64,000 bases of DNA from Escherichia coli (GTDB taxonomy: Bacteria > Pseudomonadota > Gammaproteobacteria > Enterobacterales > Enterobacteriaceae): NCBI RefSeq assembly GCF_001677475.2, contig NZ_CP015229.1; one strand, 5' to 3'. Made by a program: the position numbers and the translations under genes. The notes under the pieces are model-generated. The model saw nothing but the letters and a program-made list of their open reading frames with translations, did not search any database and was not told where the DNA came from. Positions 3,889 to 54,551 of this stretch are shown piece by piece (position 1 is the first letter of the stretch; each line of letters begins with the position of its first letter).

Positions 3889-6147
3889 TTACTCTTCGCT
3901 ATCACCACTGCTGGCACGGCGAGGAGAGTCGATCTCAACACGATCGATACGCTGCAAACCGCGCATCAACGTACCGCGGCGTCCACGTTCGCCAGTGACT
4001 TTCTGTAGCTCTTCCGGACGCAGTTTAATTTTGCGTTTCCCAACATGAATGGTCAGCGTGCTTTGCGGCGGCAGAACGTACAGTTGCGCAAGACCATCTT
4101 CTCCACGCGCGGCTTCTGCCGATGGAATGTTGATAATCTTGTTGCCTTTGCCCTTCGACAGCTGCGGCAGATCGCTTACCGGGAACATCAACATACGGCC
4201 TGCCTGAGTGATTGCCAGCAGCATATCGGAAGCATCTTCAATCACCACCGGCGGCATAACATGGGCATTTTCCGGTAAGGTGATCAAAGCTTTACCTGCA
4301 CGGTTACGCGCCACCAGATCGTTAAAGGTGCAGACGAAACCGTAACCCGCATCGGAAGCCATCAGCAGTTTCTGATCGTCGCTTTCCATCAGCATATGGT
4401 CAACGGTCGCCCCAGGCGGCAACGTTAATTTGCCGGTGAGCGGTTCGCCCTGACCACGCGCCGACGGCAGCGTAATCGGGTCAATGGCATAGCTACGACC
4501 GGTGGAATCAACAAACACTACCGGTTGGTTGCTCTTACCTTTCACCGCCGCTTTGAAGCTATCACCCGCTTTATAATTCAGGCCCGGCGCGTCGATATCA
4601 TGGCCTTTAGCGCTGCGTACCCAGCCCATCTGCGACAGCACAATAGTGACAGGTTCAGACGGCAGCATGTCGTGCTCGCTCATCGCTTTCGCTTCTTCGC
4701 GTTCCTGCAACGGCGAACGACGATCGTCACCGTAGGCTTGCGCGTCTGCCTGCAGTTCTTTCTTCAGCAGGTTATTCATTTTACGCTCGGAAGCCAAAAT
4801 GCCCTGCAACTGGTCGCGCTCTTTTTCCAGCTCACTCTGCTCACCGCGAATCTTCATCTCTTCCAGTTTGGCAAGATGACGCAGTTTCAGTTCGAGGATC
4901 GCTTCCGCCTGGGTTTCCGTAAGGCCAAACCGCGACATCAGCGCCGGTTTCGGTTCATCTTCATTACGAATGATCTCAATCACTTCGTCGATATTGAGAA
5001 ACGCCACCAGCAAACCTTCGAGGATATGCAGGCGCTTGAGGACTTTCTCCAGACGATAGTTCAGTCGGCGGCGCACGGTATCGCGGCGGAACACCAGCCA
5101 TTCAGAGAGGATTTCCAGCAGGTTTTTCACCGCCGGACGACCATCCAGACCGATCATATTGAGATTAATGCGATAGCTCTTTTCCAGATCGGTGGTAGCG
5201 AAGAGGTGGTTCATCACCTGATCCATATCCACGCGGTTGGAACGCGGCACAATCACCAGACGGGTCGGGTTCTCGTGGTCAGATTCATCGCGCAGATCGT
5301 CAACCATCGGCAGCTTTTTGTTGCGCATTTGCGCAGCAATTTGCTCCAGTACGCGCGCACCTGAAACCTGATGCGGCAATGCGCTGATAACCACCGCACC
5401 ATCTTCTTTCTTCCACACCGCGCGCATACGCACTGAACCACGTCCGTTCTCGTAGATTTTACGGATCTCGGCGCGCGAAGTGATAATTTCCGCTTCAGTC
5501 GGATAATCCGGCCCCTGCACGATATCCAGCAGCTGATCGAGCGTGGTTTTCGGCTGGTCGATTAATGCGATTGCCGCCTGAGCCACTTCACGCAGGTTAT
5601 GCGGTGGAATATCGGTCGCCATGCCGACGGCAATACCGGTGGTACCGTTAAGCAAAATGTTTGGCAGACGGGCAGGTAGCATTTTCGGCTCCTGCAAAGT
5701 GCCGTCGAAGTTTGGTACCCAGTCAGCCGTCCCCTGCCCCAGCTCGCTCAATAGCAGCTCGGAATATTTCGACAACCGGGATTCGGTGTAACGCATTGCC
5801 GCGAACGATTTCGGATCGTCCGGCGCGCCCCAGTTCCCCTGACCATCAACCAGCGGATAACGGTAAGAGAACGGCTGCGCCATCAGGACCATCGCTTCAT
5901 AACAGGCGCTATCGCCGTGCGGATGGTATTTACCCAGTACGTCACCGACTGTACGGGCCGATTTTTTAAATTTGGCGCTGGCATTCAGGCCCAGCTCAGA
6001 CATCGCATACACAATGCGGCGCTGAACAGGTTTCAGACCATCACCAATAAACGGCAACGCACGGTCCATGATCACGTACATGGAGTAGTTTAAGTAGGCG
6101 TTTTCCGTAAATTCATGTAGCGCAAGGCGCTCTGCCATATCGCTCAT
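3889..6147 (-). CDS. parC: DNA topoisomerase IV subunit A
   Basis: 752 aa; GyrA/ParC N-terminal signature ([17 protein letters not shown]). Confidence 0.95.
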
Positions 6148-30419: not shown

Positions 30420-30645
30420 ATCAGGGCAGTCTTAGGAGTGGCGGCATATAGCCAAAATAACGTGAGCGGGTCCATGCCCGACAGAATCGTTACTCTCTCC
30501 CATCCGGACTCTAACCGTCGGCCCCGGAATTACACCGGATCTGCTGTCCTTTGAGTTCGCACCCAAAGCGCTCGCGGGCTTTCAACTGAGTTGATTTACC
30601 GCCGGTGGGGAATTTCGCCCCGCCCTGAGAATAAGCGGATTCACT
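30420..30645 (-). promoter_or_regulatory. FMN riboswitch (RFN element) in the ribB leader
   Basis: Reverse strand contains GGGGCGAAATTCCCCACCGGCGGTAAA ... CCGGGGCCGACGGTTAGAGTCCGGATGGGAGAG, the conserved RFN aptamer blocks, just upstream of ribB. Confidence 0.8.
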
Positions 30646-32216: not shown

Positions 32217-33878
32217 ATGGATGATATTGTTAATTCTGTGCCCTCCTGGATGTTTACCGCAATTATTGCCGTATGCATTCTGTTTATTATTGGAATTATT
32301 TTCGCCAGGCTCTATCGTCGCGCTTCGGCAGAGCAAGCTTTTGTTCGTACTGGTTTAGGTGGGCAAAAAGTGGTAATGAGCGGTGGCGCAATCGTGATGC
32401 CGATCTTTCATGAAATAATCCCCATCAATATGAATACCCTGAAGCTGGAAGTCAGCCGCTCAACCATTGATAGCCTGATTACGAAAGATCGTATGCGCGT
32501 CGATGTAGTAGTCGCTTTCTTTGTGCGGGTAAAACCTTCAGTAGAAGGGATTGCCACCGCCGCCCAGACGCTGGGGCAACGCACCCTGTCGCCTGAAGAC
32601 TTACGTATGTTGGTTGAAGATAAATTTGTCGATGCCCTCCGTGCAACAGCTGCGCAAATGACCATGCATGAGTTACAGGATACCCGCGAGAACTTCGTGC
32701 AGGGAGTACAAAATACCGTAGCTGAAGATCTGTCGAAAAACGGCCTGGAACTGGAAAGCGTTTCACTTACCAACTTTAACCAGACGTCGAAAGAACATTT
32801 CAATCCTAACAACGCCTTTGACGCCGAAGGTTTAACCAAGCTGACGCAGGAGACGGAGCGCCGTCGTCGCGAACGTAACGAAGTTGAACAGGATGTAGAA
32901 GTTGCGGTGCGTGAGAAAAACCGTGATGCGCTTTCGCGGAAGCTGGAGATTGAACAACAAGAAGCGTTTATGACGCTTGAACAGGAGCAGCAGGTTAAAA
33001 CCCGTACCGCTGAGCAGAATGCGAAAATTGCAGCTTTTGAGGCCGAGCGTCGTCGGGAAGCAGAGCAGACGCGTATTCTGGCTGAACGACAGATTCAGGA
33101 AACAGAAATCGACCGCGAACAGGCCGTCCGCTCAAGAAAAGTTGAAGCTGAACGTGAAGTTCGCATTAAAGAGATCGAACAGCAGCAGGTCACCGAAATC
33201 GCTAACCAGACGAAATCGATCGCTATTGCCGCCAAATCGGAACAACAGTCCCAGGCAGAAGCGCGTGCTAATCTCGCACTTGCAGAAGCGGTAAGCGCCC
33301 AACAAAACGTAGAAACCACTCGCCAGACTGCCGAAGCCGATCGTGCTAAACAAGTTGCCCTAATCGCTGCCGCGCAGGATGCAGAAACCAAAGCGGTTGA
33401 ACTGACCGTGCGGGCGAAAGCAGAAAAAGAAGCCGCAGAGATGCAGGCGGCGGCTATCGTTGAGTTAGCCGAAGCTACACGTAAAAAGGGTCTGGCGGAA
33501 GCAGAAGCACAACGTGCGCTGAACGATGCTATCAACGTACTTTCTGATGAACAAACCAGCCTTAAATTCAAACTGGCCTTGTTGCAGGCGCTACCTGCGG
33601 TAATAGAGAAATCCGTTGAGCCGATGAAGTCTATCGACGGCATCAAGATTATTCAGGTCGATGGATTAAACCGAGGTGGTGCTGCGGGGAATGCGGCATC
33701 AGGCAGCGTTAGTGGCGGAAACCTGGCAGAACAGGCATTGTCTGCCGCCCTTTCTTACCGCACACAGGCACCACTGATTGACTCCTTGCTCAATGAAATC
33801 GGTGTTTCAGGCGGCTCACTGACGGCATTGACCTCACCCTTAACCTCAACAACTCCCGTCGAAGAAAAAGCAGAGTAA
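32217..33878 (+). CDS. yqiK: Flotillin/band-7 (SPFH) family protein YqiK
   Basis: 553 aa; N-terminal TM, SPFH domain, long Ala/Glu-rich coiled coil. Confidence 0.8.
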   Translation: MDDIVNSVPSWMFTAIIAVCILFIIGIIFARLYRRASAEQAFVRTGLGGQKVVMSGGAIVMPIFHEIIPINMNTLKLEVSRSTIDSLITKDRMRVDVVVAFFVRVKPSVEGIATAAQTLGQRTLSPEDLRMLVEDKFVDALRATAAQMTMHELQDTRENFVQGVQNTVAEDLSKNGLELESVSLTNFNQTSKEHFNPNNAFDAEGLTKLTQETERRRRERNEVEQDVEVAVREKNRDALSRKLEIEQQEAFMTLEQEQQVKTRTAEQNAKIAAFEAERRREAEQTRILAERQIQETEIDREQAVRSRKVEAEREVRIKEIEQQQVTEIANQTKSIAIAAKSEQQSQAEARANLALAEAVSAQQNVETTRQTAEADRAKQVALIAAAQDAETKAVELTVRAKAEKEAAEMQAAAIVELAEATRKKGLAEAEAQRALNDAINVLSDEQTSLKFKLALLQALPAVIEKSVEPMKSIDGIKIIQVDGLNRGGAAGNAASGSVSGGNLAEQALSAALSYRTQAPLIDSLLNEIGVSGGSLTALTSPLTSTTPVEEKAE

Positions 33879-34039
33879 ACCCTCTTCTAGGAATAATCCC
33901 TGGCCCAAAAAGCCGGGGATTTTTTATATCTGCGTTCCGCTAAAAAGTGTAAATGATCAGGTTGTTGCAGCGTTTTGCGTGACTGCTCGGGGAAGGCAAA
34001 ACTGCATCAGAGAAAGCATTGCGCGGGGTCTGGCGCTCA

Positions 34040-34190
34040 TCAACAATCGGGGAGTCAGTAAGGGGCTGAAACGGGAAAGCCCCTCCCGAAGAAGGGGCCT
34101 TATAGAAGGAAAGGGTTATGATGAAGTTCGTCATCATACTGATTGTGTTGTTACTGTTAAGTTTCCCGACTTACTAACAACTCATCAGAG
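34040..34190 (-). ncRNA. Sib-type antisense sRNA (antitoxin) overlapping the ibs ORF; boundaries approximate
   Basis: Inferred from the ibs ORF and flanking hairpins; ends cannot be fixed from sequence alone. Confidence 0.4.
34118..34177 (+). CDS. Ibs-type type I toxin peptide (19 aa, MMKFVIILIVLLLLSFPTY)
   Basis: Short hydrophobic ORF with upstream GGAAAGGG RBS; hallmark of ibs/sib loci in the yqiK-hldE intergenic region. Confidence 0.65.
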   Translation: MMKFVIILIVLLLLSFPTY

Positions 34191-34296
34191 GGGGGAGAAA
34201 TCCTCCCTTACCCTTGTTCCTTTACTTTAGGTTGAAAAAAAAACAGCGTCAATAGATCTGCCTGCTACGAAGCGAGATCTGTGAAGCGCTTTCCGG

Positions 34297-35730
34297 TTAG
34301 CCTTTTTTATCCTGTTGGATCTTCTTGATAATATTAGTGGTCGAGCAACCGTCTTCAAAGTTGAGCACCAACACTTCGCCGCCGTTGGCCCAGACTTCTT
34401 TACTCCCGGCAATCTCTTCTGGTTTATAATCGCCGCCTTTCACCAGCAGGTCTGGCAGGATACCGGCGATCAAGCGCTGCGGCGTGTCTTCTTCAAACGA
34501 CACCACCCAGTCGACCGCTTCCAGTGCGCCCAGCACAATCATACGCTGTTCGAGCGGGTTAACGGGGCGGGAATCCCCTTTCAGCCGTTTGGTGGAGGCA
34601 TCGCTGTTGACGGCGACAATCAAACGGTCACCCAGTTTACGGGCATTTGCCAGATAAGAGACGTGTCCGGCGTGCAGGATGTCAAAGACGCCATTGGTCA
34701 TCACCACTTTTTCACCGCGTTTACGCGCTGCCGCTACAGCAAGCTTCAGTTCCTCTTCGGTCATCACGCCAAAGCCGGTATCTGCACGTCCACGTACTGC
34801 GTTTTCCAGCTCGATCGGCGAAACCGTGGATGTCCCCAGTTTGCCGACCACCACACCAGCCGCCGCATTGGCAAAGAAGCAGGCTTCTTCCAGCGAATTA
34901 CCCGCTGCCAGCGTTGCCGCCAGGACACCAATCACCGTGTCGCCCGCACCGGTAACGTCATACACTTCCTGCGCCTGAGTTGGCATATGCAGCGGTGCTT
35001 TACCCGGTTGCAGCAGCGACATACCCTGTTCGGAACGGGTCACTAACAGAGCCGAGAGTTCGTAATCGGCAATCAGTTTCATGCCGCGCTCAACAATCTC
35101 TTCTTCGGTCTTACATTTACCGACAACAGCTTCAAATTCCGAGAGATTCGGCGTTAACAGCGTAGCGCCGCGGTAGCGCTCAAAATCGGTACCTTTTGGA
35201 TCAATCAGCACCGGAACACCCGCTTTACGCGCCAGTTGGATCATCTGCTGTACGCTTGCCAGCGCACCTTTGGCGTAGTCAGAAAGCACCAGCGCGCCAA
35301 TCGAACTCAGTGCCTGATTAATCCGCTCGTGCAGCGGCTGCGGATCAACCCCTTCAAAACCTTCTTCGAAATCCAGGCGGATCAGCTGTTGGTTACGGGA
35401 AAGCACTCGCAGTTTGGTAATAGTCGGATGCGTCGGTACAGAAACGAAGTCGCATTTTACGTTGACGTCCGCCAGTGATTTACTCAGCGCACGCGCCGCA
35501 TCATCAATACCGGTCAACCCGACCAGGCGAGCGTTAGCACCAAGAGAAGCGATGTTCATCGCCACGTTGGCTGCGCCGCCCGGACGTTCTTCAATGGTAT
35601 TAACTTTAACCACGGGCACCGGCGCTTCCGGCGAGATACGGCTGGTGGGACCGTACCAGTAACGATCCAGCATCACATCACCAACCACCATCACTCCTGC
35701 ACGTTCAAACTCTGGCAGCGTTACTTTCAT
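34297..35730 (-). CDS. hldE: Bifunctional heptose 7-phosphate kinase / heptose 1-phosphate adenylyltransferase
   Basis: 477 aa; N-terminal sugar kinase and C-terminal cytidylyltransferase-like domains. Confidence 0.9.
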
Positions 35731-54475: not shown

Positions 54476-54551
54476 GGCCCCTTAGCTCAGTGGTTAGAGC
54501 AGGCGACTCATAATCGCTTGGTCGCTGGTTCAAGTCCAGCAGGGGCCACCA
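54476..54551 (+). tRNA. ileX: tRNA-Ile2 (anticodon CAU, lysidine-modified), ileX-type
   Basis: 76-nt cloverleaf GGCCCCTTAGCTCAGTGGTTAGAGCAGGCGACTCATAATCGC...GGGGCCACCA with CAT anticodon and encoded CCA; differs from both Met tRNAs. Confidence 0.85.

What the first reader, a model, noticed from the sequence alone, without database searches (positions are those of the whole stretch)
34040..34190. Single ibs/sib type I toxin-antitoxin copy in the yqiK-hldE intergenic region
One 19-aa Ibs-like ORF (MMKFVIILIVLLLLSFPTY) is present, with the antisense Sib RNA inferred. As I recall, K-12 carries two tandem copies (sibD and sibE) at this locus, so copy number differs here.
Basis: partly seen in the sequence, partly recalled or inferred. 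Interest (0 to 1): 0.3.

Follow-up and report, generated by a model that had tools for sequence, protein, structure and literature searches.

The report
Single ibs/sib toxin-antitoxin copy beside hldE
The stretch holds one intact copy of a well-known small toxin gene (ibs) and its antisense RNA antidote (Sib), where the laboratory strain K-12 has two in tandem; about a quarter of complete E. coli genomes share the one-copy arrangement, so it is ordinary.

Summary
The observation and its interpretation both hold. A 19-codon ORF at 34118-34177 (+) encodes exactly MMKFVIILIVLLLLSFPTY. The opposite strand matches Rfam SIB_RNA (RF00113) over its full length at 144.8 bits (gathering score 56). It is the only Sib/ibs unit in the 64 kb window.

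K-12 carries sibD/ibsD and sibE/ibsE between yqiK and hldE. Its spacer is 794 bp against 418 bp here, a difference of exactly one 376-bp repeat period.

The copy-number difference is not unusual. About 1,325 of 5,425 complete E. coli genomes have the same single-copy layout, including the type strain ATCC 11775 and UTI89.

The surviving unit is of the E type. Citrobacter, Kluyvera, Phytobacter and Salmonella have one copy at this locus. E. albertii has two copies that pair one-to-one with K-12's D and E. In a neighbour-joining (NJ) tree all single copies fall inside the E clade (bootstrap 0.90). The D unit was therefore most likely lost secondarily by recombination between repeats.

The promoters, terminator, ribosome-binding site and both Sib target-recognition sites look intact.

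Verdict: an already known type I toxin-antitoxin module at its known locus, in a known polymorphic state. Low interest.

The parts
32217..33878 (+). yqiK (flotillin-family protein), upstream flank of the locus
   Evidence: 553-aa ORF. Annotated yqiK in matching E. coli records. Pfam Band_7/Flot on the identical product.
33895..33931 (+). yqiK intrinsic terminator (10-bp stem plus T-run). In K-12 this element is part of the 376-bp duplicated unit.
   Evidence: Terminator scan. The sequence ATCCCTGGCCCAAAAAGCCGGGGATTTTTT occurs twice in the K-12 spacer and once here.
34019..34047 (+). Putative weak ibs promoter: -35 TTGCGC (34019-34024), 17-nt spacer, -10 AACAAT (34042-34047). Inferred, not shown.
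   Evidence: Read from the sequence. AACAATCG and the TTG of the -35 are conserved in Escherichia, Citrobacter, Kluyvera and Phytobacter units. The position gives an mRNA of about 160 nt, matching the 159-163 nt ibsC/ibsD mRNAs of Han et al. 2010 (PMC2943612). It is below the simple promoter scan's threshold.
34100..34120 (+). ibs translation-initiation region (SD-like AAGGAAAGGG plus AUG), the target of Sib recognition domain TRD2
   Evidence: Sequence. TRD2 targets the TIR according to PMC2943612. The MFE fold of the predicted mRNA sequesters the SD and AUG.
34118..34177 (+). ibs toxin ORF, 19 aa, MMKFVIILIVLLLLSFPTY (E-type)
   Evidence: Translation. Differs from K-12 IbsE at 2 residues (L4F, V9I) and from the ATCC 11775 Ibs at 1 (V9I). 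Identical to the hldE-proximal Ibs of E. albertii. The identical product in a sister contig carries Pfam PF13956 Ibs_toxin.
34150..34171 (+). Target of Sib recognition domain TRD1 within the ORF (GTTACTGTTAAGTTTCCCGACT); identical to K-12 ibsE here
   Evidence: Alignment with K-12 units. TRD1 definition from PMC2943612.
34074..34217 (-). Sib antitoxin RNA (about 144 nt), fully antisense to ibs
   Evidence: Rfam RF00113 at 144.8 bits. Ends transferred from the annotated K-12 sibE by alignment. 95.8% identical to SibE and 90.5% to SibD over an alignment that includes the promoter. MFE -53.7 kcal/mol, z -4.69. The consensus structure over 13 Sib homologues has 10 pairs with compensatory changes.
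34076..34101 (-). Sib terminator hairpin (GC-rich core 34080-34099); the run UUUCCCGUUU overlaps the last paired bases of its 3' arm and continues beyond it
   Evidence: Fold. Conserved with compensatory changes across homologues.
34224..34252 (-). Sib promoter: -35 TTGACG, 17 nt, -10 TAAAGT
   Evidence: Promoter scan, 9 of 12. Aligned with the K-12 sibD/sibE promoters. Covered by the 5' part of the Rfam model.
34297..35730 (-). hldE, downstream flank; co-directional with sib
   Evidence: 477-aa ORF. Annotated hldE in the matching records.

Best explanation
The yqiK-hldE spacer of this Escherichia coli-like genome holds one intact ibs/sib type I toxin-antitoxin module of the IbsE/SibE type.

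Mechanism, taken from work on the K-12 paralogues and not tested here:
- A weakly transcribed, highly structured ibs mRNA of about 160 nt encodes a 19-aa hydrophobic membrane peptide that is toxic when overproduced.
- The Sib RNA of about 144 nt is transcribed from the opposite strand from a near-consensus promoter and is perfectly complementary to the ibs mRNA.
- Sib nucleates pairing through two recognition domains: TRD1 within the ORF and TRD2 at the ribosome-binding site.
- Pairing blocks translation and triggers mRNA decay.

Relative to K-12 the locus lacks exactly one 376-bp repeat period, the one that carries sibD/ibsD. This single-copy state is a common natural polymorphism, seen in about a quarter of complete E. 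coli genomes.

The single-copy state most likely arose by loss of the D unit through homologous recombination between the tandem repeats. The tandem D/E duplication already existed in the common ancestor of E. coli and E. albertii. The confidence of 0.9 applies to the identity and single-copy status of the module; the direction of change (secondary loss of D) I put at about 0.7.
For: Identity of the module:
- Full-length Rfam SIB_RNA hit on the minus strand, 144.8 bits against a gathering score of 56.
- The ORF translates to an Ibs peptide 2 residues from K-12 IbsE. Pfam Ibs_toxin is recorded on the identical product.
- Same yqiK/hldE synteny as the annotated K-12 sibD/sibE and as the RefSeq 'ibsE' of single-copy strains.

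Integrity:
- Sib promoter TTGACG-17-TAAAGT.
- Sib terminator hairpin and multibranch fold, z -4.69.
- 10 covarying pairs across 13 homologues.
- The ibs mRNA fold hides the SD and AUG, z -4.16.
- The TRD1 target is identical to K-12 ibsE.

Copy number:
- One SIB_RNA hit and one ibs motif in 64 kb. No direct repeats in the spacer.
- Spacer of 418 bp against 794 bp in K-12, a gap of 376 bp equal to the repeat period.

Frequency:
- 1,325 of 5,425 genomes align collinearly over at least 80% of an 801-nt query spanning the locus. Most of the rest give two places.
- Single-copy strains include ATCC 11775, UTI89, S88 and APEC O1.

Direction of change:
- The hldE-adjacent unit is single in Citrobacter, Kluyvera, Phytobacter and Salmonella arizonae. 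It is double with 376-bp spacing in E. albertii and Escherichia sp. E1V33.
- The NJ tree of the 195-nt core groups K12_E, E. albertii E and all single copies, including the window (bootstrap 0.90). It groups K12_D with E. albertii D (0.89).
- E-type units and single copies share derived states (CCCGACT, CAACTCA) relative to the outgroups, and D lacks them.

Literature:
- The number of type I loci varies between strains, and O157 Sakai has seven ibs genes (PMC2887945).
- TRD1/TRD2 mechanism (PMC2943612).
Against: No expression or toxicity data exist for this strain.

The ibs promoter is inferred only from conservation and transcript length, and it fails the simple consensus scan.

The direction of change (loss versus never duplicated) rests on a 195-nt NJ tree with moderate support. 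Gene conversion between repeats and recombination between Escherichia lineages could distort it.

The single copies share features seen in neither K-12 unit: F4, and the TIR variant TTATAGAAGG. A divergent Escherichia lineage (SCPM-O-B-8794, hldE about 93% identical) carries the same single-copy type. The haplotype is therefore old, and its history may not be a simple recent deletion.
Confidence: 0.9

Rival explanations
1. The single copy is the retained ancestral state. This lineage never had the tandem duplication, and D arose (or was acquired) only in other lineages.
For: All non-Escherichia genera examined have a single unit next to hldE. The single-copy haplotype is shared by this window, B2-type strains and a divergent Escherichia lineage, and it has its own TIR variant. 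In the left half of the unit the window mostly carries states that are also ancestral.
Against: E. albertii, which lies outside E. coli, has D and E units that pair one-to-one with K-12 D and E (bootstrap 0.89 and 0.90). The single copies nest inside the E clade rather than outside D plus E. D keeps outgroup-like states (CAG.CAA) that E and the single copies have lost. D is therefore unlikely to be a later copy of a single-type unit.
Confidence: 0.2
2. The single copy is an assembly artefact: two about 90%-identical 376-bp tandem units collapsed into one.
For: Tandem repeats can collapse in short-read assemblies. The provenance of the window is unknown.
Against: The same arrangement is present in about 1,325 complete genomes, including finished reference strains. 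An independent NCBI contig (GCA_019140065.1) matches 7,661 of 7,662 bases across the locus with the same single unit, and 23 further contigs with similar gene neighbourhoods were grouped with it and not shown. The junctions are clean, with no chimeric or ambiguous sequence.
Confidence: 0.02
3. The unit is a decaying relic that no longer works as a toxin-antitoxin pair.
For: Some homologues do decay. The hldE-locus ibs of Citrobacter sp. MGH106 has lost its reading frame. K-12 annotation calls IbsD only 'putative'.
Against: The ORF, SD, both promoters, the Sib terminator and the Sib structure are all intact and near-identical to the K-12 E unit. The peptide is identical to that of E. albertii despite about 9% divergence at hldE, which suggests purifying selection.
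Confidence: 0.05

Closest known systems
E. coli K-12 ibsE/sibE (b4666/b4611)
   Same: Same locus (hldE-proximal unit between yqiK and hldE) and same orientation. Sib is 95.8% identical including the promoter. The TRD1 target is identical and the C-terminal half of the peptide (LLLLSFPTY) is identical.
   Different: Peptide differs by L4F and V9I. The TIR/TRD2 region reads TTATAGAAGG instead of TTGTATAAGG. The Sib -10 is TAAAGT instead of TAGAGT. There is no neighbouring D unit.
Single-copy 'ibsE' of E. coli ATCC 11775, UTI89 and similar strains (WP_001387082.1)
   Same: Same single-copy architecture with a spacer of about 418 bp (its ORF and hldE sit at the same offsets from yqiK), and the same F4 and TIR variant. 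The 211-nt unit is 98.1% identical.
   Different: One residue (V9I) and a handful of substitutions. Several sites in the left half of the unit differ (GCATCAGAG/GTCTGG here against GCCTCTGGG/GTCCGG).
E. albertii hldE-proximal Ibs/Sib unit
   Same: Identical 19-aa peptide and the same E clade.
   Different: In E. albertii it sits in a two-copy array with a D unit whose peptide is identical to K-12 IbsD.
K-12 ibsD/sibD, ibsC/sibC, ibsA/sibA, ibsB/sibB
   Same: Same family, same antisense architecture, same RNA fold.
   Different: Sib identity is 90.5% (D) and 67-69% (A, B, C). The TRD1/TRD2 sequences differ, so they are not expected to be cognate (PMC2943612).

Membership tests
Ibs toxin family (Pfam PF13956) | 18-19 aa hydrophobic peptide with the MMK/R-x-V-I-I-L ... 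SF-x-x-Y pattern | tested here: met
   The translation aligns without gaps to K-12 IbsA, C, D and E. The identical peptide on a sister contig is recorded with a PF13956 hit. At 19 aa the peptide is too short for the hmmscan tool, so there was no direct scan.
Sib antitoxin RNA (Rfam RF00113) | Score at or above the Rfam gathering threshold, over the full length, on the strand opposite ibs | tested here: met
   144.8 bits against 56, model positions 1-147 of 147, minus strand. The plus-strand hit of 32.5 bits is below threshold and reflects the mirror-image structure.
Sib antitoxin RNA (Rfam RF00113) | Conserved multibranch secondary structure with a terminator hairpin | tested here: met
   MFE z -4.69. 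Consensus fold of 13 homologues: 40 pairs, 10 with compensatory changes.
ibs/sib type I toxin-antitoxin system | Own promoter and terminator for the antisense RNA, which is fully overlapping (cis-encoded) | tested here: met
   TTGACG-17-TAAAGT promoter. Terminator hairpin. Sib at 34074-34217 fully covers the ORF at 34118-34177.
ibs/sib type I toxin-antitoxin system | Orthologous genomic position (yqiK-hldE spacer, D/E locus) | tested here: met
   Flanking genes and the K-12 and RefSeq annotations.
ibs/sib type I toxin-antitoxin system | Ibs overproduction is toxic, and the cognate Sib represses ibs | not testable with these tools
   Known for the K-12 paralogues from the literature (PMC2943612).
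ibs/sib type I toxin-antitoxin system | Sib and ibs transcripts actually expressed in this strain | not testable with these tools
   No transcriptome data are available.

The most novel reading that the evidence does not exclude
The one-copy and two-copy arrangements at yqiK-hldE could be an old polymorphism that crosses species boundaries. The one-copy haplotype is shared by this lineage, B2 E. coli and a divergent Escherichia lineage. The two-copy haplotype is shared by K-12-like E. coli, E. albertii and E1V33. If both have been maintained or repeatedly exchanged since before the E. coli/E. albertii split, that would point to selection on type I toxin-antitoxin dosage rather than neutral gain and loss.
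Probability: 0.1. Interest if true: 0.35.

Novelty: already known. Interest (0 to 1): 0.08.

Why it matters
It matters little beyond correct annotation. The 19-codon ibs gene and the Sib RNA are easily missed by gene callers, and the locus should be labelled ibsE/sibE-type, single copy.

The comparative result has modest value for understanding how tandem type I toxin-antitoxin arrays expand and collapse: the single copy is ancestral in the family, the duplication dates to early Escherichia, and the D unit was probably lost in about a quarter of E. coli genomes. It adds no new biology.

Tried and rejected
1. D-left/E-right hybrid. A first three-way alignment suggested that the window's unit is a crossover product, with a K-12 D-like left half and an E-like right half. 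Adding E. albertii, E1V33, SCPM-O-B-8794 and the outgroups showed that most 'D-like' sites in the left half are simply ancestral states, while K-12 E and B2 share derived ones. I therefore do not claim a mapped crossover point. I claim only that exactly one 376-bp period is missing and that the surviving core is E-type.

2. Second Rfam hit. The plus-strand hit (32.5 bits) is below the gathering score and overlaps the same unit. It is the mirror image of the real hit, not a second gene.

3. Papers. Fozo et al. 2008 and the 2008 MMBR review could not be retrieved under the PMC ids I recalled, and one recalled id was an unrelated paper. Statements about toxicity therefore rest on Han et al. 2010 and Fozo et al. 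2010 plus general knowledge.

4. K-12 query census. The K-12 two-copy query did not separate one-copy from two-copy genomes by coverage, because the pieces are joined. The census relies.

5. Spurious ORFs. The 65-aa minus-strand ORF (33940-34137) and the 83-aa plus-strand ORF (33979-34230) overlapping the unit are treated as spurious, because they run through the RNA structure and the promoters.

6. Source organism. The source genome is not among the species representatives scanned. It was found only as a near-identical draft contig.

Full report
**What is in the sequence**

The window is Escherichia coli-like. yqiJ and yqiK lie on the + strand (yqiK 32217-33878). hldE (34297-35730) and glnE lie on the - strand. 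The yqiK-hldE spacer is 418 bp (33879-34296).

The opposite strand matches Rfam SIB_RNA (RF00113) over all 147 model positions at 144.8 bits against a gathering score of 56, E 1.5e-31. A weaker plus-strand hit (32.5 bits) is below threshold. It reflects the mirror-image fold of the sense transcript.

At gathering threshold the whole 64 kb contains one SIB_RNA hit. An ibs motif with 22 specified bases occurs once even with 3 mismatches allowed, and never in shuffles. The spacer region contains no direct repeats. There is therefore exactly one unit.

**Comparison with K-12**

The RefSeq annotation of NC_000913.3 shows sibD/ibsD and sibE/ibsE between yqiK and hldE, 376 bp apart, in a 794-bp spacer.

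A global alignment of the two spacers places a single 376-bp gap in the window, exactly one repeat period. That gap removes the whole sibD/ibsD unit. The repeat unit in K-12 includes a second copy of the yqiK terminator.

**Which unit survives**

- The window's Sib, including its promoter, is 95.8% identical to K-12 SibE, 90.5% to SibD and 67-69% to SibA, B and C.
- The peptide differs from K-12 IbsE by L4F and V9I.
- It differs from the RefSeq 'ibsE' product of single-copy strains (WP_001387082.1, MMKFVIILVVLLLLSFPTY) by V9I.
- It is identical to the hldE-proximal Ibs of E. albertii.

**Anatomy and likely function**

- *Sib promoter.* On the minus strand, -35 TTGACG (34252-34247), 17 nt, -10 TAAAGT (34229-34224). 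This aligns with the K-12 sibD/sibE promoters.
- *Sib RNA.* By homology to the annotated K-12 ends, Sib spans 34074-34217. It folds into a closed multibranch structure plus a GC-rich terminator hairpin, at -53.7 kcal/mol, z -4.69.
- *Structure conservation.* A consensus fold of 13 diverse Sib homologues collected here keeps 40 pairs, 10 of them with compensatory changes.
- *ibs promoter (inferred).* On the plus strand, a weak promoter (TTGCGC-17-AACAAT, 34019-34047) is inferred from conservation across genera. It would give a transcript of about 160 nt, as reported for ibsC and ibsD (PMC2943612).
- *ibs mRNA.* That transcript folds with the SD and AUG sequestered, z -4.16.
- *Recognition domains.* Han et al. 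2010 showed that Sib recognises its cognate mRNA through TRD1 (within the ORF) and TRD2 (at the TIR). Here the TRD1 target (34150-34171) is identical to K-12 ibsE. The TRD2 region (34100-34120) is a variant shared by all single-copy genomes. Because Sib is cis-encoded, cognate pairing is automatic.

The mechanism is antisense pairing that blocks translation and destabilises the mRNA of a small membrane toxin. This is transferred from the K-12 paralogues. It is not shown for this strain.

**How unusual is one copy?**

It is not unusual. An 801-nt query spanning the locus aligned collinearly (at least 80% in one place) in 1,325 of 5,425 complete E. coli genomes. Most of the others gave two overlapping places, as expected for two units. 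The total number of places (9,570) is consistent with about 1,300 single-copy genomes.

Single-copy genomes include the species type strain ATCC 11775, UTI89, S88, APEC O1, IHE3034 and NU14. From general knowledge these are phylogroup B2 strains. IAI39 and O157:H7 EDL933 have two units.

Fozo et al. 2010 already noted that the number of type I loci varies greatly between strains. For example, O157 Sakai has seven ibs genes (PMC2887945).

**Origin of the one-copy state**

A DNA-pattern scan of one genome per species gave 52 loci. I sorted them by flanking genes.

| hldE-adjacent unit | Lineages |
|---|---|
| Single | Five Citrobacter species, Kluyvera sichuanensis, Phytobacter ursingii, Salmonella enterica subsp. 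arizonae, and a divergent Escherichia lineage labelled E. coli SCPM-O-B-8794 (hldE about 93% identical to E. coli) |
| Double, 376-bp spacing | E. albertii and Escherichia sp. E1V33 |

A single copy is therefore ancestral for the family, and the duplication arose within Escherichia.

An NJ tree of the 195-nt core gives two groupings:
- K-12 E, E. albertii E and all single copies, including the window (bootstrap 0.90).
- K-12 D with E. albertii D (bootstrap 0.89).

E-type units and single copies share derived states that are absent from D and from the outgroups.

The most economical reading has three steps. The D/E duplication predates the E. coli/E. albertii split. The window's unit descends from E. 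D was then lost, most simply by homologous recombination between the tandem repeats.

I put about 0.7 on this direction. The tree is short, and gene conversion or recombination between lineages could mislead it. My first impression of a D-left/E-right hybrid did not survive the wider alignment.

**Provenance and artefact check**

No complete E. coli genome is closer than 97.9-98.7% over three sections of 22-24 kb each. None has an identical Sib unit; the best is 98.1%.

The exact YqiK protein occurs on many public contigs. One of them (GCA_019140065.1) matches 7,661 of 7,662 bases across the locus and has the same single unit. Together with the 1,325 complete genomes, this excludes assembly collapse as the explanation.

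**Verdict**

This is a correctly observed and correctly interpreted feature, but an ordinary one. It is a known type I toxin-antitoxin module at its known locus, in a common and already annotated copy-number state.

Noticed in passing
window 30488-30636 (-): FMN riboswitch (RF00050, 120.9 bits) upstream of a DHBP-synthase (ribB-like) gene. An expected, known element.
   Followed up: no
window 54476-54551 (+) and downstream, within 40000-64000: A tRNA with anticodon CAT (probably ileX, from general knowledge) lies near genes annotated in matching records as tyrosine integrase, DNA-primase-family protein and, in one record, a prohead protease/capsid fusion. Only 2 of 5,425 genomes cover at least 80% of this 24-kb stretch. 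It looks like a variable integrated element at the tRNA.
   Followed up: partly
whole window: The source lineage has no close relative among 5,426 complete E. coli genomes (best 97.9-98.7% identity). It does exist in draft assemblies: GCA_019140065.1 shows 1 mismatch in 7,662 bases.
   Followed up: partly
window 22000-46000 against the best E. coli hits: The best-matching genomes span about 27.6 kb for this 24-kb query, in two pieces. They therefore carry about 3.6 kb that the window lacks somewhere in this stretch. The position was not located.
   Followed up: no
window 34218-34296: hldE and sib are co-directional. The hldE stop codon is only about 45 nt upstream of the sib -35, and the scan found no terminator-like site between them. 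hldE read-through could therefore run into sib. The same layout exists in K-12.
   Followed up: no
L034 (Citrobacter sp. MGH106), about 5902-6093: The hldE-adjacent ibs homologue has lost its frame (it translates to MMKRVIILGAVTDKFPGSLTVNQRG), an example of a decaying unit at the same locus.
   Followed up: no
NZ_CP158187.1 (E. coli EC0900), hits H40/H92: This complete genome matches only the hldE part of the locus queries. The yqiK end and the sib units appear to be missing or displaced.
   Followed up: no
L018 (SCPM-O-B-8794, serA locus): Two SibC-type units about 390 bp apart lie next to serA, where K-12 has a single sibC. Tandem duplication has therefore also happened at the C locus in another lineage.
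   Followed up: no
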